In this document: positions 2,915 to 24,062 of the stretch, piece after piece
Layout of the letters: each line of letters starts with the position of its first letter
Numbering within the stretch: position 1 is the first letter of the stretch
Virus record (IMG/VR): IMGVR_UViG_3300046543_000595
Location: 1 to 64,000 of that record
Reading direction: 5' to 3' (one strand)
DNA: 64,000 nucleotides
Source: a virus
Taxonomy: Duplodnaviria; Caudoviricetes
The notes under the pieces: model-generated
Told to the model about the DNA's origin: nothing
Databases searched by the model: none
The model's input: only the letters and a program-made list of their open reading frames with translations
Position numbers and translations under genes: made by a program

Positions 2915-2985
2915 GCGGTTGGATTAGAACGGGCTTAGGACCGCTCTGCCGCATTAGGTGGCGAGGATCGCCACCCCTTCTGCGT
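2915..2985 (-). ncRNA. twister ribozyme-like RNA, type-P5 permutation, copy 1
   Basis: minus strand GCAGAAGG-[GGUGGCGA/UCGCCACC]-UAAUGCGGC-[AGAGCGG UCCUAAGC CCGUUCU]; matches the twister core. Confidence 0.85.
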
Positions 2986-3197: not shown

Positions 3198-3272
3198 GCG
3201 GTTGAGTTTGCCCCCGGGCTACCGACCGGGCTGCCGCATTAACGGGAGGACCGCCCTCCCGCCGGTCTGCGT
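3198..3272 (-). ncRNA. twister ribozyme-like RNA, copy 2
   Basis: GCAGACCG-[P1]-UAAUGCGGC-[CCCGG UCGGUAGC CCGGG]; CG/CG covariation of the pseudoknot. Confidence 0.8.
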
Positions 3273-3696: not shown

Positions 3697-3772
3697 GCGG
3701 TTTGATTTTGGCATCGGGTTTCGGACCGACCGCCGACCGCATTAGCGGGCATCGCTGCCCGCCCGTCTGCGT
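3697..3772 (-). ncRNA. twister ribozyme-like RNA, copy 3
   Basis: GCAGACGG-[GCGGGCA/UGCCCGC]-UAAUGCGGUC-[GUCGG UCCGAAAC CCGAU]; GU/AC covariation. Confidence 0.82.
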
Positions 3773-5297: not shown

Positions 5298-5538
5298 GAG
5301 GCACCCCCAGCGCGTTCAGCGCGTCGCAGACCGCCTGCGCCTGCACCACATGCTTCGATTTGGTATCCGATCCCGCACCTTCCCATCCGTCCTCGTTGTA
5401 CCAGACGGTCGCCATGACCTTGTTTGACGTCTCCGCCGATCCATCTTCCGGCAGCACCCGCACGATCTCGTACGCCGCCTGCACCCCATTGCCGTTTCGC
5501 GCTCCCCGACCGATGCGTACCACGTAGCGGCTATCCAC
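5290..5538 (-). CDS. hypothetical protein
   Basis: GAGG SD with GTG start; coupled to its neighbours. Confidence 0.5.
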   Translation of the reverse strand: MDSRYVVRIGRGARNGNGVQAAYEIVRVLPEDGSAETSNKVMATVWYNEDGWEGAGSDTKSKHVVQAQAVCDALNALGVPRG

Positions 5539-5836
5539 GGTCCACCTCGATCTCCTTCCGGCTCGCCCAATCGCCGCGACGTGGATCTCCCTCCCACACC
5601 CGCCCGTTGTACGACACGTAGGCGATACGCTTCCCCGCATCATCCAGGAGGACTCCCGCGTCGCCCGTCCAATTTCCCATCCCTAAATGATTGGTCGCGA
5701 TGTACTGCCGGACGATCCGGCTCGCATCTGCGTATGTCCGCACGTCCAGGCGCGTCTCGCGCCCGCTATGCACCGGCTTCTGCCAGTACCCACCCACGAT
5801 GTCCGGATTCTTTCGATGTCTCAATATGAGCTTCAT
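5531..5836 (-). CDS. hypothetical phage protein
   Basis: GMGNWTG...IAYVSYNGRVW motif; GGGAG SD; behind twister copy 5. Confidence 0.65.
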   Translation of the reverse strand: MKLILRHRKNPDIVGGYWQKPVHSGRETRLDVRTYADASRIVRQYIATNHLGMGNWTGDAGVLLDDAGKRIAYVSYNGRVWEGDPRRGDWASRKEIEVDRG

Positions 5837-5848
5837 TGCGAACTCCCA

Positions 5849-5918
5849 GCGGTATGATTGGACTCGGCTTTGGACGAGTCTGCCGCATTACGGGGCATCG
5901 CTGCCCCGCCATCTGCGT
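5849..5918 (-). ncRNA. twister ribozyme-like RNA, copy 5
   Basis: GCAGAUGG-[CGGGGCA/UGCCCCG]-UAAUGCGGC-[GACUCG UCCAAAGC CGAGUC]. Confidence 0.85.
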
Positions 5919-7898: not shown

Positions 7899-7973
7899 GC
7901 GGTTGAATTTGGCGCAGGTTGTGGACTGCCGCCGACCGCATTAACGCACCCCATCGGGTGCGCCCATCTGCGT
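7899..7973 (-). ncRNA. twister ribozyme-like RNA, copy 6
   Basis: GCAGAUGG-[GCGCACCC/GGGUGCGU]-UAAUGCGGUC-[GCAG UCCACAAC CUGC]. Confidence 0.82.
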
Positions 7974-18262: not shown

Positions 18263-18589
18263 ATGTGGAAAGTGGACCCATCCGACAAGTATCCGGAACC
18301 GAGCAAAGAGCACTTAATCAACCGCCGCCAGATCAAGTTCGCGACGATCCCGAATGAATACGCCTGTGGCATCCTCTCTGGTCGCACGCGAATCATCAAC
18401 CTGCCGGAGGACGCGGAGATCGCCGGCTACTTCCATGACTGGCTCCGTGACGGCCTTGGTGTCTATATCTACTCGTCGACATATCCCCGTGTCGAACCAT
18501 GCCTCGAGATCGGCCGGGTGGAACTCATTTACCAGCGCGTTGACAACCCGGCGCCGGCAGTGGTAGATTCTGGGTCGGCGGGTGGGTGA
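18263..18589 (+). CDS. hypothetical protein
   Basis: GAGGAG SD; 3' end overlaps a promoter and the tRNA. Confidence 0.55.
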   Translation: MWKVDPSDKYPEPSKEHLINRRQIKFATIPNEYACGILSGRTRIINLPEDAEIAGYFHDWLRDGLGVYIYSSTYPRVEPCLEIGRVELIYQRVDNPAPAVVDSGSAGG

Positions 18590-18651
18590 AGCGGTTTCCA
18601 CGATGGTCTCATAAGCCATAGATACTGAGGTTCGATTCCTCAGATCCGCCA
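18577..18651 (+). tRNA. tRNA with CAT anticodon (Met or Ile2)
   Basis: cloverleaf; ATGGT-CTCATAA-GCCAT; GTTCGATTC; TTGACA-17-TAGATT promoter at 18540. Confidence 0.88.
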
Positions 18652-19677: not shown

Positions 19678-20335
19678 ATGATAGTTGAAATCCGAGCCGC
19701 CGAGGGCGGCGATGACGCCAAATTACTCGTCCTGGATCAGTGCCGCATCTACGCGAAACGATGTCTCAGGAACGGTCTTTGACTTTGCGATCGTCGATCA
19801 ACGGCCAGGTATTATCGTTACGATTATTCGTGGCGCGAAAGAACACATCTTCCAATCTGAATCCGGTGGCCATCGCTGGCAGCGGATCCCACCGACCGAA
19901 AAGCGCGGCCGCGTTCAAACCAGCACCATCACGGTAGCCGTCTTACCCGAACCCACTGCCGTCGAAGATCCATTGAAATTACACGATCTGGACTGGATGA
20001 CTTGTCGCTCTGGCGGTAAGGGCGGCCAGAACGTGAACAAAGTCGAATCGGCGGTGCAGATCCGTCATCGTCCCACCGGTCTGATTGTGCGGTGTGAATC
20101 GGAACGCTCGCAGCTGCTGAACAAACAGTCGGCGCTGGAGATCATGCGGGCAAAGCTCTGGGATGCGGCACGTACGCAGCAGAGTAACGCGATAGCCAGT
20201 GATCGTAAACAGCAGGTCGGCGCCGGCATGCGTGGCGACAAGCGACGGACGATCCGGGTGAGGGATGGGGCGGTCGTCGACCACGTGACGGGACAGCGCT
20301 GGAAATTCGATGACTACATTGCGGGACGATGGTAA
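19678..20335 (+). CDS. short class-I peptide chain release factor (RF1-like PxT), expressed through a +1 programmed frameshift at CTT-TGA-C (19777-19783)
   Basis: GGAGG SD and ATG 19678 give MIVEIRAAEGGDDA...NGL*; the +1 frame continues to ESGGHRWQRIPPTEKRGRVQTS and SGGKGGQNVNKVESAV. Confidence 0.9.
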
Positions 20336-20363
20336 TTGACATCGTCCACAGAACGTGGATAAT
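20336..20363 (+). promoter_or_regulatory. sigma70-like promoter of tRNA operon 1
   Basis: TTGACA-16-GATAAT. Confidence 0.7.
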
Positions 20364-20369
20364 CGAACC

Positions 20370-20447
20370 GTGAACATCACGTACATCATGGACGCACGAG
20401 CCGCCGCGAGACCGTGGCCACCCGTGTGTCTGGGAGGCGGTATGTAG
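20370..20447 (+). CDS. leader peptide 1 (MNITYIMDARAAARPWPPVCLGGGM)
   Basis: GTG sits at the predicted +1 (leaderless); its Ala/Arg/Pro/Trp run matches the downstream tRNAs. Confidence 0.65.
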   Translation: MNITYIMDARAAARPWPPVCLGGGM

Positions 20448-20475
20448 CGCGCGAACTACAAATTCCACTCCTCTC

Positions 20476-20507
20476 AGGCTGACAGCAATGTCAGCCTTTT
20501 TTGTTTT
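20476..20507 (+). terminator. intrinsic terminator (attenuator) before tRNA-Pro
   Basis: AGGCTGACA-GCAA-TGTCAGCCT-TTTTTGTTTT. Confidence 0.85.
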
Positions 20508-20508
20508 C

Positions 20509-20580
20509 CGGGATGTAGGAAAGTGGGTATCCACTCCGTTTGGGGCGGAGGAATCGCCAGTTCGAATCTGGTCATCCCGA
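20509..20580 (+). tRNA. tRNA-Pro(TGG)
   Basis: cloverleaf; CTCCG-TTTGGGG-CGGAG. Confidence 0.9.
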
Positions 20581-20589
20581 CTTGTTTAT

Positions 20590-20660
20590 GGGCCGGTAGC
20601 TCAACGGGAGAGCGTCTCACTTGCAATGAGAAAGATGGGGTTCGATTCCCCCCGTGTCCA
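20590..20660 (+). tRNA. tRNA-Ala(TGC)
   Basis: TCTCA-CTTGCAA-TGAGA; G3:U70 pair. Confidence 0.85.
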
Positions 20661-20664
20661 CTTT

Positions 20665-20753
20665 ACGGACGTGGCCGAGTGGTTGAAGGCTCCGGATTCC
20701 AGACCCGGATGACCGTAATGGTCGCATCGTTGGTTCGAATCCAACCGTCCGTG
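20665..20753 (+). tRNA. tRNA with CCA (Trp) anticodon and long variable arm
   Basis: loop TTCCAGA; variable stem GACC-GTAAT-GGTC; A1-U72 and G73. Confidence 0.75.
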
Positions 20754-20760
20754 CTTCAGA

Positions 20761-20860
20761 TTGGCGGTCCCTGTGCAACCAAGCACGAGGCGCTCCTCTG
20801 GTCGAGGGTGGGGCTGGGTTTCGAATCTCCGGCCCGGCGCTGTTGGGACGGGGCCGCCAA
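20761..20860 (+). ncRNA. structured non-tRNA RNA within the tRNA array
   Basis: closing stem TTGGCGGTCC/GGGCCGCCAA; internal hairpins, one with a TTCGAAT loop. Confidence 0.45.
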
Positions 20861-20867
20861 TGTCTTT

Positions 20868-20941
20868 CGGGATGTAGGAAAGCCTGGAAATCCGTCTGCC
20901 TCGGGCGCAGAAGATCGCCGGTTCAAATCCGGCCATCCCGA
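20868..20941 (+). tRNA. tRNA-Pro(CGG)
   Basis: TCTGC-CTCGGGC-GCAGA. Confidence 0.9.
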
Positions 20942-20945
20942 CTTT

Positions 20946-21020
20946 GCCCGCGTAGCTCAGCCTGGATAGAGCGACGAGCTTCTAACTCGAGGGCCGCAGG
21001 TCCGAATCCTGCCGCGGGTA
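20946..21020 (+). tRNA. tRNA-Arg(TCT)
   Basis: CGAG-CTTCTAA-CTCG. Confidence 0.9.
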
Positions 21021-21035
21021 CTATATACTGGCCGC

Positions 21036-21191
21036 ATGTGGCTAATCATCGAAACCGATTCCACGGTCGAGATCGTCCCCGACTTCGGTCGGCAGCATGT
21101 GCTGGTCGGAGATAACGATGGACCGTGCTGGTGCGTGCCTCGAATCGAAGAGAACGATCGCGATCTCGTCATCCACGAAGCGGACAACTGA
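21036..21191 (+). CDS. 51-aa hypothetical protein
   Basis: read by eye: MWLIIETDSTVEIVPDFGRQHVLVGDNDGPCWCVPRIEENDRDLVIHEADN. Confidence 0.5.
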   Translation: MWLIIETDSTVEIVPDFGRQHVLVGDNDGPCWCVPRIEENDRDLVIHEADN

Positions 21192-21192
21192 C

Positions 21193-21220
21193 TTGACAAC
21201 CGATCGGCAGTGTGCATAAT
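21193..21220 (+). promoter_or_regulatory. sigma70-like promoter of tRNA operon 2
   Basis: TTGACA-16-CATAAT. Confidence 0.7.
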
Positions 21221-21319
21221 CGGATCTGAACTTGATAGGGTTTGCGAATCGTCCAGTTTCACTCATTACCTCTCTGGGAACGGCAGTCGAGCAATCGCTG
21301 CCGACCCGGCACTTATAAA

Positions 21320-21409
21320 ATGCGATTTATAAAACAACACGAACACATCCAGACACGCGGTAGGAATACCGTCGGAATGGATACGTTCGTGCCGGAGGTC
21401 ACCGGGTAA
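21320..21409 (+). CDS. leader peptide 2 (MRFIKQHEHIQTRGRNTVGMDTFVPEVTG)
   Basis: amino-acid set equals that of the 21 downstream tRNAs plus one Pro; followed by an attenuator. Confidence 0.7.
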   Translation: MRFIKQHEHIQTRGRNTVGMDTFVPEVTG

Positions 21410-21434
21410 AGAACCAAAACCCGAATGACCGACC

Positions 21435-21470
21435 GGCCGGAGACACAAGGTTCTCCGGCCTTTCTGTTTT
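21435..21470 (+). terminator. intrinsic terminator (attenuator) before tRNA operon 2
   Basis: GGCCGGAGA-CACAAGGT-TCTCCGGCC-TTTCTGTTTT. Confidence 0.85.
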
Positions 21471-21471
21471 C

Positions 21472-21543
21472 TGCCCCGTGGCGCAGTGGTAGCGCGGCGC
21501 TCTCATAAGGCGACGGTCGGGAGTCCGAATCTCCCCGGGGCGA
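21472..21543 (+). tRNA. tRNA with CAT anticodon (Met or Ile2)
   Basis: loop CTCATAA; cloverleaf. Confidence 0.85.
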
Positions 21544-21616
21544 TGGGATGGTGGGACAATAGGAAAATGCCTTGTTTCCCGAGGAAAATGCCTAACGTGC
21601 AGCCATCCTAGCTTTT

Positions 21617-21689
21617 GCCGCGGTAGCACAGTTGGTAGTGCAGCTGACCCGTAATCAGCAGGTCGTGAGTCCGAATCTCACCCGTGGCT
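21617..21689 (+). tRNA. tRNA-Thr(CGT)
   Basis: GCTGA-CCCGTAA-TCAGC (C33). Confidence 0.85.
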
Positions 21690-21690
21690 T

Positions 21691-21765
21691 AGGTCTGTCG
21701 TTAAGCGGGGCGGTAACGTTCCGGGTTGACCGGCTCGCACACACTTCCGTAAAGCGATAGACCTT
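21691..21765 (+). ncRNA. structured non-tRNA RNA
   Basis: closing stem AGGTCTGTCG/CGATAGACCT; internal CCGG-GTTGA-CCGG. Confidence 0.4.
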
Positions 21766-21767
21766 TC

Positions 21768-21839
21768 GCCGCAGTAGCCGAGGGGTAAGGCGCCGAGTTG
21801 GTATCTCGGAGATCGTGGGATCATTCCCCACCTGTGGCT
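21768..21839 (+). tRNA. tRNA-Thr(GGT)
   Basis: CCGAG-TTGGTAT-CTCGG. Confidence 0.85.
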
Positions 21840-21841
21840 TT

Positions 21842-21902
21842 GGCCCGGCACCATGTACTGATGGAGCGCCCGTTCCGGGTAGTCATCGGAGACGGCTGGG
21901 CC
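21842..21902 (+). ncRNA. small multibranch non-tRNA RNA
   Basis: closing stem GGCCCGGC/GCTGGGCC with short internal hairpins. Confidence 0.35.
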
Positions 21903-21905
21903 TTC

Positions 21906-21978
21906 GCTCGCGTAGCACAATTGGCGGTGCGCCACCCTTGTAGCGTGGAGGTTGCCGGATCGTTGCCGGCCGCGAGCT
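21906..21978 (+). tRNA. tRNA-Thr(TGT)
   Basis: loop CTTGTAG; cloverleaf. Confidence 0.8.
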
Positions 21979-21985
21979 TTTGTTT

Positions 21986-22059
21986 GGGCGGTTAGTTCAG
22001 CCTGGAAGAACGCGGAGCTTACATCTCCGATGCCGCGGGTTCAAATCCTGCACCGCCTA
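21986..22059 (+). tRNA. tRNA-Val(TAC)
   Basis: CGGAG-CTTACAT-CTCCG. Confidence 0.9.
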
Positions 22060-22061
22060 TC

Positions 22062-22135
22062 GCTGTCGTAGCTCAACTGGCAGAAGCATCCGGCTCTTAA
22101 CCGGAAGGTTGTGGGATCGTTGCCCACCGACAGCA
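22062..22135 (+). tRNA. tRNA-Lys(CTT)
   Basis: TCCGG-CTCTTAA-CCGGA. Confidence 0.88.
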
Positions 22136-22208
22136 TGGGGCATAGCTCAACTGGCAGAGCGCTGGATTCTGAATCCAGAGGTTTAAGGTTCGAAGCCTTA
22201 TGCCCTAG
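22136..22208 (+). tRNA. tRNA-Gln(CTG)
   Basis: CTGGA-TTCTGAA-TCCAG. Confidence 0.9.
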
Positions 22209-22212
22209 TCGT

Positions 22213-22288
22213 AGCTCGGTAGCACAACTGGCGGTGCGCGCGCCTTTGGAGCGCGAGGCTGCAGGTTCGAAGCCTGCCCGGGCTGCCA
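22213..22288 (+). tRNA. tRNA-Gln(TTG)
   Basis: CGCGC-CTTTGGA-GCGCG; encoded CCA. Confidence 0.9.
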
Positions 22289-22290
22289 TT

Positions 22291-22364
22291 CGGCTCGTAG
22301 TTCAGCGGACTAGAACATCGGTCTCCGAAACCGAAAGTCAGGAGTTCGAATCTCCTCGAGTCGA
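22291..22364 (+). tRNA. tRNA-Arg(CCG)
   Basis: TCGGT-CTCCGAA-ACCGA. Confidence 0.88.
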
Positions 22365-22369
22365 CTTGT

Positions 22370-22448
22370 TGACAGGTGGCAGACATTTGGTAATGCGCGC
22401 GGCTGTTAACCGCGGTCGATTTGGGTTCGAAACCCAACCTGTCAGCCA
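22370..22448 (+). tRNA. tRNA-Asn(GTT)
   Basis: CGCGG-CTGTTAA-CCGCG; encoded CCA. Confidence 0.85.
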
Positions 22449-22452
22449 AAAT

Positions 22453-22525
22453 GCCCGCGTGGTCTAATGGAAGGGCCCTTGACTACGAATCAAGTGACAT
22501 GCAGGTCCGAGTCCTGCCGCGGGTA
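22453..22525 (+). tRNA. tRNA-Arg(ACG)
   Basis: CTTGA-CTACGAA-TCAAG. Confidence 0.88.
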
Positions 22526-22529
22526 CTCT

Positions 22530-22600
22530 GCCTCGGTCGGTTAGTGGTAAACCATCTGGCTTCCAACCAGAAACTGCGGGTCCGATTCCCGCTCGGGGCA
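22530..22600 (+). tRNA. tRNA-Gly(TCC)
   Basis: TCTGG-CTTCCAA-CCAGA. Confidence 0.88.
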
Positions 22601-22601
22601 T

Positions 22602-22687
22602 TGGGCGCGAAGGAGCTAAAGCAGGGTATAGGTTTGACTCGACCCACGATGAGTGATGAATCGGGTACCTGCCAGGCGTCGCGTCCA
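22602..22687 (+). ncRNA. structured non-tRNA RNA
   Basis: outer stem TGGGCGCGA/TCGCGTCCA; inner stem GCAGG/CCTGC; two short hairpins. Confidence 0.45.
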
Positions 22688-22691
22688 CTTT

Positions 22692-22763
22692 GTGGTCGTC
22701 GTCCAATTGGCAGGATGGGACGTTGCCAACGTCCAGACGCCGGATCATTCCCGGTCGACCACT
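22692..22763 (+). tRNA. tRNA-Gly(GCC)
   Basis: GGACG-TTGCCAA-CGTCC. Confidence 0.85.
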
Positions 22764-22766
22764 CTT

Positions 22767-22840
22767 GGGACCGGCGCATAACGGCTGGTGCGCTCCGCTG
22801 TCTACGGATGCTTTAGGGGGTTCAACTCCCCTCGGTCCCG
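22767..22840 (+). tRNA. tRNA-Asp(GTC)
   Basis: TCCG-CTGTCTA-CGGA. Confidence 0.82.
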
Positions 22841-22843
22841 TCT

Positions 22844-22914
22844 GGCCCCGTCTTCCAAGGGTAGGAACGCGGATTTTCACTCCGCGAATTGGAGCTCGAC
22901 TCTCCACGGGGCTA
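22844..22914 (+). tRNA. tRNA-Glu(TTC)
   Basis: GCGGA-TTTTCAC-TCCGC. Confidence 0.85.
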
Positions 22915-22917
22915 TCT

Positions 22918-22989
22918 GTCGCGTTCGGCTAGAGGCTAGGCCGTCGCCCTCTCGAGACGAAGACGCCGGTTCGACTCCGGCACGCGACG
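22918..22989 (+). tRNA. tRNA-Glu(CTC)
   Basis: loop CTCTCGA; GGTTCGACTCC. Confidence 0.85.
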
Positions 22990-22991
22990 TC

Positions 22992-23066
22992 GCTCGAGTA
23001 ACTCAGTGGTTTCAGAGATCGCGTCTGATAAGCGCGAGGTCGGGAGTTCGATTCTCCCCTCGAGCA
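22992..23066 (+). tRNA. tRNA-Ile(GAT)
   Basis: CGCGT-CTGATAA-GCGCG. Confidence 0.88.
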
Positions 23067-23070
23067 CTTT

Positions 23071-23143
23071 GCCGCGGTAGCTCAGACGGTAGAGCGCGGC
23101 CCTGAAAAGGCCGGCGTCGGGAGTCCGACTCTCCCCCGTGGCA
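23071..23143 (+). tRNA. tRNA-Phe(GAA)
   Basis: CGGCC-CTGAAAA-GGCCG. Confidence 0.9.
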
Positions 23144-23178
23144 CTATGGAAACACATAAACGTCTGGTGATTCACTTC

Positions 23179-23252
23179 GCCAGCCTAACTCAAACGGATA
23201 GAGTATCGGTCTTTTAAACCGAAGGTTGTGGGATCATACCCCACGGCTGGCA
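23179..23252 (+). tRNA. tRNA-Lys(TTT)
   Basis: TCGGT-CTTTTAA-ACCGA. Confidence 0.85.
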
Positions 23253-23255
23253 TAC

Positions 23256-23326
23256 GCCGAGTTCGTCCAGCGGAAGGACGTCTGATTGTGGATCAGAAGA
23301 CTGGGGTTCGAGCCCCCAACTCGGTA
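23256..23326 (+). tRNA. tRNA-His(GTG)
   Basis: TCTGA-TTGTGGA-TCAGA; A73, no encoded G-1. Confidence 0.88.
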
Positions 23327-23328
23327 TC

Positions 23329-23403
23329 GGACCTGTAGCTCAGATGGACAGAGCGCTTGTTTCCTAAACAAGGCTGCCGCGAGTTCGAATCTCGCCAGGT
23401 CCA
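23329..23403 (+). tRNA. tRNA-Arg(CCT)
   Basis: CTTGT-TTCCTAA-ACAAG. Confidence 0.9.
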
Positions 23404-23404
23404 C

Positions 23405-23434
23405 TTGACAGAACCAAACCCGATCGTCTAGGAT
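23405..23434 (+). promoter_or_regulatory. sigma70-like promoter of tRNA operon 3
   Basis: TTGACA-18-TAGGAT. Confidence 0.65.
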
Positions 23435-23442
23435 GACCCATC

Positions 23443-23541
23443 ATGAAAGTGCAAATCTTTCGCCACGTGATCGCTGCTTTAGCCAGTTCTTCCCGCTTGC
23501 GCCTCTCCTCGTTACGACTCAGTTATTGTTCATCTCTGTAA
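23443..23541 (+). CDS. leader peptide 3 (MKVQIFRHVIAALASSSRLRLSSLRLSYCSSL)
   Basis: ATG near the predicted +1; 16 of the last 20 codons are Ser, Leu, Tyr or Cys, matching the downstream tRNAs. Confidence 0.7.
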   Translation: MKVQIFRHVIAALASSSRLRLSSLRLSYCSSL

Positions 23542-23556
23542 ACCAAAACTAAACTC

Positions 23557-23630
23557 GCCCCTGTACGCAAACTGGCAAAGCGATCCCGCTCAAAACGGGC
23601 TGTTTGTGGGTCCGACTCCCACCGGGGGTA
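23557..23630 (+). tRNA. tRNA-Leu(CAA), short variable arm
   Basis: CCCG-CTCAAAA-CGGG. Confidence 0.82.
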
Positions 23631-23632
23631 TT

Positions 23633-23717
23633 GGCGATGTAGACGTGTACGGCGCACGGGCGCTCTGTAAAAGCGTTTTGGGCAACTGACCACTGAGTTC
23701 GATTCTCAGCATCGCCA
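23633..23717 (+). tRNA. tRNA-Tyr(GTA)
   Basis: GCGCT-CTGTAAA-AGCGT; long variable arm. Confidence 0.82.
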
Positions 23718-23720
23718 CTT

Positions 23721-23811
23721 GGAAGCGTGGTCGAGCGGTTTATGACACCGGCCCCGAAACCCGGCGGGTAGTTGAAAGGCTATCTCGTGAGTTCGAATCT
23801 CACCGCTTCCT
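23721..23811 (+). tRNA. tRNA-Ser(CGA)
   Basis: loop CCCGAAA (C33); long variable arm. Confidence 0.82.
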
Positions 23812-23814
23812 CTT

Positions 23815-23895
23815 GGCCCCTTGGTGAAACGGCATACACGCCGGTCTTAGGAACCGGTTCCTTCGGGAGTGAGAGTTCAAGTCTCTCAGGGGCTA
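23815..23895 (+). tRNA. tRNA-Leu(TAG)
   Basis: CCGGT-CTTAGGA-ACCGG. Confidence 0.9.
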
Positions 23896-23898
23896 TTC

Positions 23899-23971
23899 GG
23901 ACGTCTGCCGGAATGGTTAACGGGCTGGGCTGCAAACCCAGTTTTTAGGAGTTCGATCCTCCTGGCGTCCT
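23899..23971 (+). tRNA. tRNA-Cys(GCA)
   Basis: CTGGG-CTGCAAA-CCCAG; U73. Confidence 0.88.
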
Positions 23972-23974
23972 CTT

Positions 23975-24061
23975 GGAGAGATGGCCGAGTCTGGCTGAAG
24001 GCACCGGTTTGCTAAACCGGCAGGCAGTGATGTCTCGCGGGTTCAAATCCCGCTCTCTCCG
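23975..24061 (+). tRNA. tRNA-Ser(GCT)
   Basis: CCGGT-TTGCTAA-ACCGG; long variable arm. Confidence 0.92.
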
Positions 24062-24062
24062 C

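What the first reader, a model, noticed from the sequence alone, without database searches (positions are those of the whole stretch)
21193..21470. Attenuator 2: a 29-codon leader that samples nearly every isoacceptor of a 21-tRNA operon
The codons spread across synonyms: Thr ACA/ACC/ACG, Gln CAA/CAG, Glu GAA/GAG, Gly GGT/GGA/GGG, Ile ATA/ATC, Arg CGA/CGC/AGG, Phe TTT/TTC, Val GTC/GTG. There is no Ala, Leu, Ser, Cys, Trp or Tyr, which are supplied by the other two operons. CCGG-A-GGTCA-C-CGGG at the ORF end is complementary to CCCG-AA-TGACC-GA-CCGG, which overlaps the terminator stem. Caveat: no clear SD; a hairpin and a short TTG-started ORF precede it.
Basis: partly seen in the sequence, partly recalled or inferred. 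Interest (0 to 1): 0.85.

Follow-up and report, generated by a model that had tools for sequence, protein, structure and literature searches.

The report
Leader peptide mirrors phage tRNA operon
In front of a cluster of about 21 tRNA genes, a soil phage carries a tiny 29-codon gene that asks for just the amino acids those tRNAs serve, followed by a transcription stop signal, which looks like a feedback switch that makes more tRNA only when it runs short.

Summary
Window 21193-21470 contains a sigma-70-like promoter, a structured leader (z -4.3), a 29-codon ORF (ATG 21320 to TAA 21409) and a canonical intrinsic terminator 11 nt before tRNA-Met.

- **Match to the operon:** 27 of 28 post-start codons encode amino acids served by the downstream operon, and all 13 of its amino acids occur. 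None of 400,000 composition-preserving shuffles reaches this.
- **Relative:** the only independent relative found (G001, portal 67% identical) keeps promoter, ORF, hairpin B and terminator. About half its residues differ, yet its 25-codon ORF still covers 13 of 13 amino acids with 2 outsiders.
- **Structure:** hairpin B holds the last codons and the stop. It competes with the base of the terminator, as in a classical attenuator.

**Weak points:**
- There is no Shine-Dalgarno sequence, and the 5' UTR is about 93 nt.
- Equilibrium folding favours the terminator in every ribosome state.
- Isoacceptor-level sampling is no better than the peptide composition predicts.
- Only two genomes are available and there is no RNA data.
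- The sister leaders 1 and 3 are only suggestive.

Megaphage loci show similar Pro and Tyr/Leu leaders before matching tRNA clusters. Four literature searches found no prior report.

Verdict: probably a ribosome-mediated attenuator that senses the supply of the tRNAs it controls, a new variant of a known mechanism.

The parts
21193..21220 (+). sigma-70-like promoter P2 (-35 TTGACA 21193-21198, 16-nt spacer, -10 CATAAT 21215-21220); predicted start near 21227
   Evidence: 11 of 12 matches. The same element lies at the same place in G001 (TTGACA-16-GATAAT) and is aligned.
21227..21319 (+). 5' UTR of about 93 nt with hairpin 21282-21302 (outer stem 21275-21309) and CCGGCAC (21306-21312), which is complementary to GUGCCGG (21390-21396)
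   Evidence: Folds; duplex energy -15.5 kcal/mol. A hairpin of different sequence sits at the same place in G001.
21320..21409 (+). leader ORF of 29 sense codons plus TAA; 27 of 28 post-start codons belong to operon-2 amino acids, and all 13 of those are present
   Evidence: The G001 homologue has 25 codons, with start and stop aligned and a length difference of 12 nt.
21339..21392 (+). hairpin A inside the ORF (lower stem CACGAAC 21339-21345 with GUUCGUG 21386-21392); candidate pause or '1:2' element
   Evidence: The CGAAC block is conserved in G001, where codons 5-9 pair with the segment before hairpin B (-16.1 kcal/mol).
21386..21441 (+). hairpin B, the candidate antiterminator. Its 5' arm carries the last sense codons and the stop; its 3' arm runs into the terminator's 5' arm (GCCGG 21391-95 with CCGGC 21433-37; UUCG 21386-89 with CGGA 21438-41).
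   Evidence: In G001 the helix is kept with a compensatory G-to-A / C-to-U change and a paired U/A insertion.
21435..21470 (+). intrinsic terminator T: 9-bp stem, 8-nt loop (21435-21460), then UUUCUGUUUU. tRNA-Met starts at 21472.
   Evidence: hairpin alone -17.3 kcal/mol. The G001 counterpart has an 11-bp stem followed by UUCUUUUUGU.
21472..23404 (+). operon 2: 20 tRNA genes called by ARAGORN plus a tRNA-Asp(GUC)-like sequence at 22767-22839; 13 amino acids (M T V K Q R N G E I F H D)
20336..20508 (+). sister leader 1: promoter, ORF ending at TAG 20445-20447 (core AAARPWP), hairpin holding the stop, terminator 20476-20497, then tRNA-Pro/Ala/Trp/Pro/Arg
   Evidence: The match is only suggestive under composition-preserving shuffles (P 0.12).
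23405..23556 (+). sister leader 3: promoter, ATG 8 nt after the -10 (leaderless), 32-codon Leu/Ser/Tyr/Cys-rich ORF ending 15 nt before tRNA-Leu; no terminator, unstructured
   Evidence: z +1.5. Shuffle P 0.035.

Best explanation
This is a ribosome-mediated transcription attenuator of a phage tRNA operon. Its leader peptide is a 'mirror' of the operon.

Transcription starts at P2 (about 21227) and must pass terminator T (21435-21470) to reach the 20-21 tRNA genes. A ribosome translating the 29-codon ORF meets at least one codon for each of the 13 amino acids those tRNAs serve.

- **All tRNAs plentiful:** the ribosome runs to the last codons and the stop, which lie in the 5' arm of hairpin B. 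It melts B, T then forms down to its base, and transcription ends. The operon is off.
- **Any one tRNA scarce:** the ribosome stalls within roughly codons 2-18. B forms as it is transcribed, holds 2-7 nt of T's 5' arm, and RNA polymerase reads through into the tRNA genes. The operon is on.

The result is negative feedback with an OR gate over 13 amino acids.

**Shown:** the parts, their order, the compositional match and their conservation. **Inferred:** translation from 21320, B acting as an antiterminator, and the direction of control.
For: 1. **Layout.** A promoter-like site with 11 of 12 matches, and a canonical terminator 11 nt before tRNA-Met. No promoter can fit between T and the tRNA, so tRNA expression needs read-through. 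The leader folds far better than shuffles (z -4.34, 0 of 200).

2. **Match to the operon.**
 - 27 of 28 codons are in the set, 13 of 13 amino acids are covered, and 0 of 28 codons belong to operon-3 amino acids.
 - Joint P is 5e-7, and 1 of 311 genomic ORFs reaches the values.
 - 0 of 400,000 shuffles of the ORF's own bases reach it. The other two frames score 16/27 and 21/27 and contain stops.

3. **Relative G001.**
 - It has the same promoter, ORF, hairpin B, terminator and tRNA-Met order.
 - Its ORF has 25 codons, 22 of 24 in the set, 13 of 13 covered. All 13 fall within 15 consecutive codons (P 1e-6 for a given stretch). Shuffle P is 6e-5.
 - Of 25 aligned codons, 7 are identical, 6 are synonymous and 12 change the residue.

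4. **Competing helices.**
 - Before T's 3' arm is made, B extends over 7 of 9 (window) or 6 of 11 (G001) nt of T's 5' arm.
 - States with a full B and a shortened T are only 1.6 and 0.4 kcal/mol above the optimum.
 - In G001 the first four T 5'-arm nt are paired at about 1.0 (nt 5-6 at 0.84-0.99, lower at codon 15) with no ribosome or a ribosome at codons 1-15. All six fall to 0.2-0.9 at codons 17-26.
 - 1:2, 2:3 and 3:4 duplexes of similar strength exist in both genomes.

5. **Same design elsewhere.**
 - Leader 1 of both genomes has the stop codon in a hairpin that abuts a terminator.
 - Pro-codon and Tyr/Leu-codon leaders precede matching tRNA clusters in megaphage loci L003, L005 and L006.

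6. **Precedent for leaderless or non-SD leader peptides.** Deinococcus deserti, passages read in PMC4007540.
Against: - **No Shine-Dalgarno sequence.** None lies before 21320, and the 5' UTR is about 93 nt, whereas many long phage ORFs show GGAG-type sites. The start region is not more open than the rest of the leader (0.38-0.46 against 0.36-0.50).
- **Upstream in-frame starts.** The frame stays open upstream to a TTG (21242) and, in G001, to an ATG 19 codons earlier. These extensions contain Leu, Ser, Cys, Tyr and Pro, plus Trp in the window and Ala in G001, so the mirroring would be lost if translation began there.
- **Equilibrium folding.** T keeps a mean pair probability of 0.80-0.98 for every ribosome position in both genomes. 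The window's pre-terminator profile is noisy.
- **Isoacceptor coverage is not better than chance** given the peptide (P 0.51 and 0.82).
- **Few sequences.** There are only two independent sequences, since G002 is identical to G001. RNAalifold on their MAFFT alignment did not recover B or T.
- **Weak extra conservation.** ORF nucleotide identity (0.62) is barely above that of the 5' UTR (0.56).
- **Mixed co-variation of codons with tRNA gains and losses.** CAA is absent from G001 leader 2, where tRNA-Gln(UUG) has moved to operon 3, and it is present in G001 leader 3. But the window's leader 3 also has CAA and TTA without matching tRNAs, and G001 leader 1 keeps CCG without tRNA-Pro(CGG).
- **Sister leaders.** Leaders 1 and 3 are not significant under composition-preserving shuffles (P 0.12, 0.035; G001 leader 3 0.16; G001 leader 1 not tested). 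Leader 3 has no terminator.
Confidence: 0.55

Rival explanations
1. The ORF is translated and does sense tRNA supply, but the output is not terminator choice. A ribosome on the leader would instead alter processing or stability of the precursor (RNase P or RNase E access, 3' hairpin protection) or Rho loading. T would then be a constitutive partial terminator or a stabilising 3' hairpin for the cleaved leader.
For: - Equilibrium folding leaves T intact in all ribosome states.
- Leader 3 has the same kind of ORF but no terminator. It is unstructured (z +1.5 and +0.9), and its stop lies only 11-15 nt from the first tRNA, so a terminating ribosome would cover the RNase P site.
Against: - Leaders 1 and 2 in both genomes place the stop codon inside a hairpin whose 3' arm runs into a canonical terminator. 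This is the hallmark of termination control.
- No nuclease or Rho site can be tested with these tools.
Confidence: 0.15
2. The stretch is a separate small gene with its own promoter and terminator, encoding either a conserved micro-protein or a trans-acting small RNA. The tRNA operon is expressed by leak-through, and the resemblance between peptide composition and tRNA set is not regulatory.
For: - It is a promoter-to-terminator unit of about 245 nt with strong structure.
- 13 of 25 aligned residues are conserved, with 6 synonymous changes.
- Attenuator RNAs can double as sRNAs (abstracts of PMC6614838 and PMC7968998, seen in the listing).
Against: - The peptide has no family. The composition match is extreme and frame-specific, and it persists through the diverged residues.
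- No promoter can fit in the 11 nt between T and tRNA-Met, so T must be passed.
- No Rfam family matches the stretch.
Confidence: 0.15
3. The ORF is not translated. The leader is a purely structural RNA element, and its reading frame and composition are by-products of the hairpins and of local base composition.
For: - There is no Shine-Dalgarno sequence and the start is not exposed.
- Much of the ORF lies in hairpins A and B.
- ORF identity is hardly above UTR identity.
- For leaders 1 and 3, composition explains most of the match.
Against: - For leader 2, shuffles that keep its own base composition never reach the match (0 of 400,000), and the other frames do not show it.
- Start and stop are aligned in G001, with a length difference that is a multiple of three.
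Confidence: 0.1

Closest known systems
Leader-peptide attenuators of amino-acid operons in enterobacteria (trpL, hisL, leuL, pheL; multivalent thrL and ilvL). Recalled textbook knowledge; a trp description was also read in PMC4007540.
   Same: A short ORF lies between the promoter and the structural genes and is enriched in the relevant codons. An intrinsic terminator stands just before the first gene. The stop codon sits in a segment whose pairing partner overlaps the terminator. The expected logic is the same: a stalled ribosome gives read-through, a finished peptide gives termination.
   Different: The controlled genes are tRNAs, not biosynthetic enzymes. The leader holds one to four codons for each of 13 amino acids, rather than a run for one to three. 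It is phage-encoded. There is no Shine-Dalgarno sequence. The antiterminator shares only 2-7 nt with the terminator.
Leader peptides before aminoacyl-tRNA synthetase genes: E. coli pheST/pheM (recalled), and leaderless leader peptides before cysS and other aaRS genes in Deinococcus deserti (PMC4007540, passages read)
   Same: Translation-apparatus genes are controlled by a leader peptide that reads the supply of the matching charged tRNA. [quoted passage not shown]
   Different: Those leaders control a protein gene for one amino acid. Here the product is the tRNA set itself, and many amino acids are read at once.
T-box riboswitches (recalled; the Rfam models are in the library that was searched)
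   Same: tRNA status decides between terminator and antiterminator upstream of translation-related genes.
   Different: A T-box binds the uncharged tRNA directly and has no ORF. No T-box or any other Rfam family matches 21193-21470.

Membership tests
Ribosome-mediated (leader-peptide) transcription attenuator | Short ORF in the transcribed leader between the promoter and the regulated genes | tested here: met
   The promoter is at 21193-21220, the ORF at 21320-21409 and the tRNA at 21472. The order is the same in G001.
Ribosome-mediated (leader-peptide) transcription attenuator | ORF enriched in codons tied to the regulated genes | tested here: met
   27 of 28 codons are in the set and 13 of 13 amino acids are covered. 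P is 5e-7, and 0 of 400,000 shuffles reach the match. G001 gives 22 of 24 and 13 of 13. The signal is at the amino-acid level only.
Ribosome-mediated (leader-peptide) transcription attenuator | Intrinsic terminator between the ORF and the first regulated gene | tested here: met
   A 9-bp GC-rich stem followed by UUUCUGUUUU, ending 1 nt before tRNA-Met (stem 11 nt before it). G001 has an 11-bp stem followed by a U-run.
Ribosome-mediated (leader-peptide) transcription attenuator | Mutually exclusive antiterminator and terminator, chosen by ribosome position | tested here: inconclusive
   Hairpin B overlaps T's 5' arm by 2-7 nt, and the alternative states are near-isoenergetic. The G001 pre-terminator profile behaves as expected, and the 1:2, 2:3 and 3:4 duplexes exist. 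However, equilibrium folds keep T in all states, and the window's profile is noisy.
Ribosome-mediated (leader-peptide) transcription attenuator | The leader ORF is translated | not testable with these tools
   There is no Shine-Dalgarno sequence and accessibility is not raised. No RNA run holds the sequence. Indirect support: 6 synonymous changes against 12 residue changes, and an in-frame length difference.
T-box riboswitch | Match to the T-box covariance model (Stem I with specifier, T-box antiterminator bulge) | tested here: not met
   There is no Rfam match in 21193-21470 at the gathering threshold or at E up to 10.
Stand-alone small RNA gene of a described family | Match to a curated RNA family | tested here: not met
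   Searches found nothing in the stretch. The nearest weak hit (sroB, 28.5 bits against a gathering score of 44) lies in leader 1, at 20431-20504.

The most novel reading that the evidence does not exclude
Phages regulate their own tRNA gene clusters with 'mirror' leader peptides. These are short, often leaderless ORFs whose codons list the amino acids of the tRNAs that follow. Ribosome speed on the leader would then report the supply of exactly those tRNAs and set read-through into the cluster.

The 13-amino-acid leader here would be the most elaborate case of a wider class. That class also includes single- or two-amino-acid leaders (Pro; Tyr/Leu) before same-amino-acid tRNA clusters in soil megaphages (L003, L005, L006). 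Such a switch would let a phage answer host tRNA depletion or cleavage on demand.
Probability: 0.45. Interest if true: 0.9.

Novelty: new variant of a known kind. Interest (0 to 1): 0.8.

Why it matters
Why phages carry tRNA genes, and how those genes are controlled, is an open question. Nothing in the four full-text searches describes a leader-peptide attenuator in front of tRNA genes.

If this element works as proposed, it is:
- the first case of tRNA genes under feedback control by the decoding speed of their own codons;
- an attenuator that integrates 13 amino acids in one 29-codon reader.

It is small (about 280 nt), uses sigma-70-type signals and can be tested directly in reporter or cell-free systems. 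It could also serve as a compact sensor of tRNA availability.

Tried and rejected
**More relatives**
- The exact terminator pattern in viral contigs gave 0 hits.
- The 51-aa neighbour ORF gave none.
- The portal protein and the portal alignment each gave 4 loci: G001, G002 and two short fragments per search (three different fragments in all).
- The tRNA-Met pattern found only G001 and G002 in viral contigs.
- In metagenome contigs it gave 6 loci, none a relative.
- G002 is identical to G001 over the region.
- Cultured phages: only tRNA-sized DNA hits, and portal hits of at most 23% identity.

**Expression**
- No RNA holder is listed.
- Contigs of 4 DNA runs showed no variant inside 21193-21470.

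**Methods that gave nothing**
- RNAalifold on the two-sequence MAFFT alignment did not recover the helices.
- A first crude Shine-Dalgarno count was uninformative.

**Generality**
- I scanned 296 upstream ORFs in 13 tRNA-bearing loci, chosen from about 50 fetched because searches found tRNAs in them. L014 duplicates part of L021, and L004 nearly duplicates L005.
- By binomial P alone the scan gave nothing convincing. The best was MKPEMPSMM before tRNA-Met (P 1.6e-4).
- The region before the Phe cluster of L003 shows only a weak 18-codon ORF with 2 Phe.

**Readings rejected**
- T as the terminator of the upstream 51-aa ORF: P2 lies between them, and the arrangement recurs in G001, where the upstream gene is different.
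- A leaderless start for the ORF: no -10-like hexamer is suitably placed before 21320 (read).
- Coupling to the upstream TTG ORF: that ORF is not conserved in G001.

Full report
**Context**

The window is the first 64 kb of a 107,420-bp virus record with direct terminal repeats, estimated complete. GC content is about 58%. No cultured relative exists in the phage collection: DNA hits are tRNA-sized only, and portal hits are at most 23% identical.

ARAGORN finds 31 tRNA genes on the + strand between 20509 and 24062. Rfam adds a tRNA(CAU) at 18577-18651. A tRNA-Asp(GUC)-like sequence at 22767-22839 falls below the thresholds.

Between 19500 and 25000 there are 4 promoter-like sites, against 2.2 +/- 1.7 in shuffles. 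Three of them stand exactly in front of three runs of tRNAs (20336, 21193, 23405). Canonical terminators lie just before tRNA-Pro (20476-20497) and tRNA-Met (21435-21460). The finding is the second of these leaders.

**The observation**

The leader folds at -90.3 kcal/mol, with z -4.34 and 0 of 200 shuffles as stable. No Rfam family matches it.

**Is the match to the tRNA set more than chance?**

The start codon is excluded from these counts.
- 27 of 28 codons encode amino acids served by operon 2, and all 13 such amino acids occur.
- 19 of 21 tRNAs have a strict-wobble cognate codon.
- Against operon 3 the score is 0 of 28.
- With codons drawn from the genome's usage, the joint probability is 5e-7. 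Only 1 of 311 genomic ATG ORFs of at least 29 codons (the leader itself) reaches these values.
- Keeping the ORF's own base composition, 0 of 400,000 shuffles reach 27/28. The other two frames give 16/27 and 21/27 and contain stops.

With the peptide fixed and synonymous codons redrawn, tRNA coverage is ordinary (mean 18.4, P 0.51). The design, if it is one, is therefore about amino acids (tRNA families), not isoacceptors.

**The relative**

A portal search found a 109,586-bp record (G001, portal 67% identical) and a fragment, G002. G002 is identical to G001 over the region, so there is one independent comparison.

G001 carries 32-33 tRNAs in the same three groups. The second group is headed by TTGACA-16-GATAAT, a leader, an 11-bp terminator with a U-run, and tRNA-Met.

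In the alignment the ATG and the TAA coincide. The G001 ORF has 25 codons (MSFKHQVERTHDRNIMGTRVPGVTG), 12 nt shorter. Of 25 aligned codons, 7 are identical, 6 are synonymous and 12 change the residue.

In spite of this divergence, 22 of 24 codons remain in the set and 13 of 13 amino acids are covered. All 13 lie in codons 3-17, and the probability for a given 15-codon stretch is 1e-6. Shuffle P is 6e-5.

Nucleotide identity of the ORF (0.62) is only a little above that of the 5' UTR (0.56). What is kept is the kind of residue rather than the sequence.

**Structure and likely mechanism**

Hairpin B (21391-21437) has the last five sense codons and the stop in its 5' arm. Its 3' arm ends inside the terminator's 5' arm.

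- While the terminator's 3' arm is not yet made, B extends to 21386-21441 and covers 7 of 9 nt of that arm. In G001 it covers 6 of 11.
- States with a full B and a terminator lacking its three bottom pairs lie only 1.6 kcal/mol (window) and 0.4 kcal/mol (G001) above the optimum.
- B is kept in G001, with one compensatory substitution and one paired insertion (read).
- In G001 the first four nt of the terminator's 5' arm are paired at about 1.0 (nt 5-6 at 0.84-0.99, lower at codon 15) with no ribosome or a ribosome at codons 1-15. All six fall to 0.2-0.9 at codons 17-26. The window's profile is noisier.
- Duplexes 1:2, 2:3 and 3:4 of -13 to -18 kcal/mol exist in both genomes.

This is the classical attenuator topology. 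A few-nucleotide overlap of antiterminator and terminator has precedent, recalled and not checked here, in the Bacillus subtilis trp leader.

Against it, equilibrium folds of the complete leader keep the terminator at 0.80-0.98 mean pair probability for every ribosome position. Any antitermination would therefore have to be kinetic. As I recall, this is also true of the trp attenuator, whose terminator is the more stable structure.

**Translation is the weakest link**

- There is no Shine-Dalgarno sequence before 21320, while many long ORFs of the phage show GGAG-type sites.
- The region around the ATG is AU-rich (GC 0.34 and 0.31 against about 0.5 for the leader), but it is not predicted to be more open than the rest.
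- In both genomes the frame is open further upstream: TTG 21242 and an ATG 19 codons earlier in G001. The extensions are unrelated in sequence and contain out-of-set residues.

In the sister leaders the start lies 7-10 nt after the -10 hexamer (G001 leader 1; leader 3 of both), which implies leaderless mRNAs. Leaderless leader peptides are documented in Deinococcus deserti (PMC4007540, passages read).

**Sister leaders**

- Leader 1 has a conserved core AA(A)RPWP before tRNA-Pro/Ala/Trp/(Pro)/Arg and shares the stop-in-hairpin-then-terminator design.
- Leader 3 is Leu/Ser/Tyr/Cys-rich before tRNA-Leu/Tyr/Ser/Leu/Cys/Ser. It has no terminator and is unstructured.
- Under codon-usage nulls both look strong (7e-4 and 3e-6). 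Under shuffles of their own bases they do not (0.12 and 0.035; G001 leader 3 0.16).

They are consistent with the idea but do not prove it. Co-variation of individual codons with tRNA gains and losses is mixed.

**Beyond the clade**

A blunt scan of 296 upstream ORFs in 13 tRNA-bearing loci gave nothing convincing by P value. Looking instead for terminators just before tRNAs led to megaphage loci.

- **Tyr/Leu leaders.** In L003 and L006, a TTGACA promoter and a short ORF (MNRVFLASLRLYSYLSGG... and MTNLTLSLTLYSLLSGLHGG...) precede a terminator and a Tyr/Leu tRNA cluster. Their Leu and Tyr codons cover 5 of 5 distinct anticodons.
- **Pro leaders.** In L003, L005 and L006, a conserved ORF (M..MRP...FRP..P..RG) with 3-4 Pro codons covers 3 of 3 Pro anticodons before a Pro tRNA cluster. 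A GCGCGGGG segment inside the ORF is complementary to the 5' arm of the following hairpin.
- The binomial P values are modest (4e-3 to 0.1).

These are parallels, partly followed up, and they raise the odds that the phenomenon is general.

**Prior knowledge**

Four full-text searches (listings and abstracts seen) returned no report of leader-peptide control of tRNA genes. Supplementary files were not consulted.

**Verdict**

The attenuator reading is the best explanation (0.55), with translation and antitermination still to be shown. It is a new variant of a known mechanism, of high interest.

Noticed in passing
window 2929-2984, 3214-3271, 3714-3771, 5863-5917, 7914-7972 (- strand): Five Twister-P5 ribozyme matches lie above the Rfam gathering score (45-56 bits against 37.6) within 5 kb of one phage genome.
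   Followed up: no
L003:4688-4887 and L006:1241-1421: In megaphage loci, a TTGACA promoter is followed by a short Leu/Tyr-rich ORF, a strong terminator and then a tRNA-Tyr/Leu cluster. The Leu and Tyr codons cover 5 of 5 distinct anticodons of the cluster. An ORF segment repeats the terminator's 3' arm.
   Followed up: partly
L003:8802-9111, L005:7240-7468, L006:7750-8006: A conserved leader ORF (M..MRP...FRP..P..RG) with 3-4 Pro codons covers 3 of 3 Pro anticodons before a cluster of tRNA-Pro genes. GCGCGGGG in the ORF is complementary to the 5' arm of the next hairpin.
   Followed up: partly
window 20336-20508 and L038 5240-5420 (-): Leader 1 ends in both genomes with GGGAGGCG(G/U)UAUGUAG. 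This is a GGAGG followed at short distance by ATG-TAG, so it could also act as a start-stop site inside the hairpin that abuts the terminator.
   Followed up: no
window 23405-23556: Leader 3 starts 8 nt after its -10 hexamer (leaderless). It is C/U-rich and less structured than shuffles (z +1.5), has no terminator, and stops 15 nt before tRNA-Leu. It may work through Rho or through tRNA 5' processing.
   Followed up: partly
window tRNA genes 20509-24062: 7 of 31 tRNAs have a T-loop reading UCCRA, with C where the near-universal U55 stands. 15 have the usual UUCRA, and 5 of the remaining 9 read AUCAU or AUCGU.
   Followed up: no
window 22767-22839: A tRNA-Asp(GUC)-like sequence is missed by ARAGORN and is weak in Rfam (21.4 bits). 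It sits where G001 has tRNA-Asp, and it has U rather than a purine after the anticodon.
   Followed up: partly
window 18577-18651; L038 about 5497-5567 (-): An extra tRNA(CAU) lies outside the three operons. ARAGORN does not call it; Rfam gives 42 bits. In G001 its counterpart has its own promoter and terminator just upstream of leader 1.
   Followed up: no
window 19685-20335: A 216-aa release-factor-like protein (RF-1 domain 1e-27, with only the end of the PCRF domain) lies directly upstream of leader 1. It is absent at that place in G001. Its relatives (37-58% identity) sit among tRNA clusters of megaphages.
   Followed up: partly
window 21544-21616, 21690-21767, 21840-21905, 22602-22691, 20755-20867: Spacers of 66-113 nt lie between tRNA genes. 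In G001, tRNA-Met, tRNA-Thr(CGU) and tRNA-Thr(GGU) lie 2-3 nt apart. The content of the spacers is unknown.
   Followed up: no
L005:10720-10749 (the same in L004): A nine-codon ORF, MKPEMPSMM (3 Met after the start), lies about 180 nt before a tRNA-Met. It was the best P in the blind scan (1.6e-4 among 296 ORFs), which is borderline.
   Followed up: no
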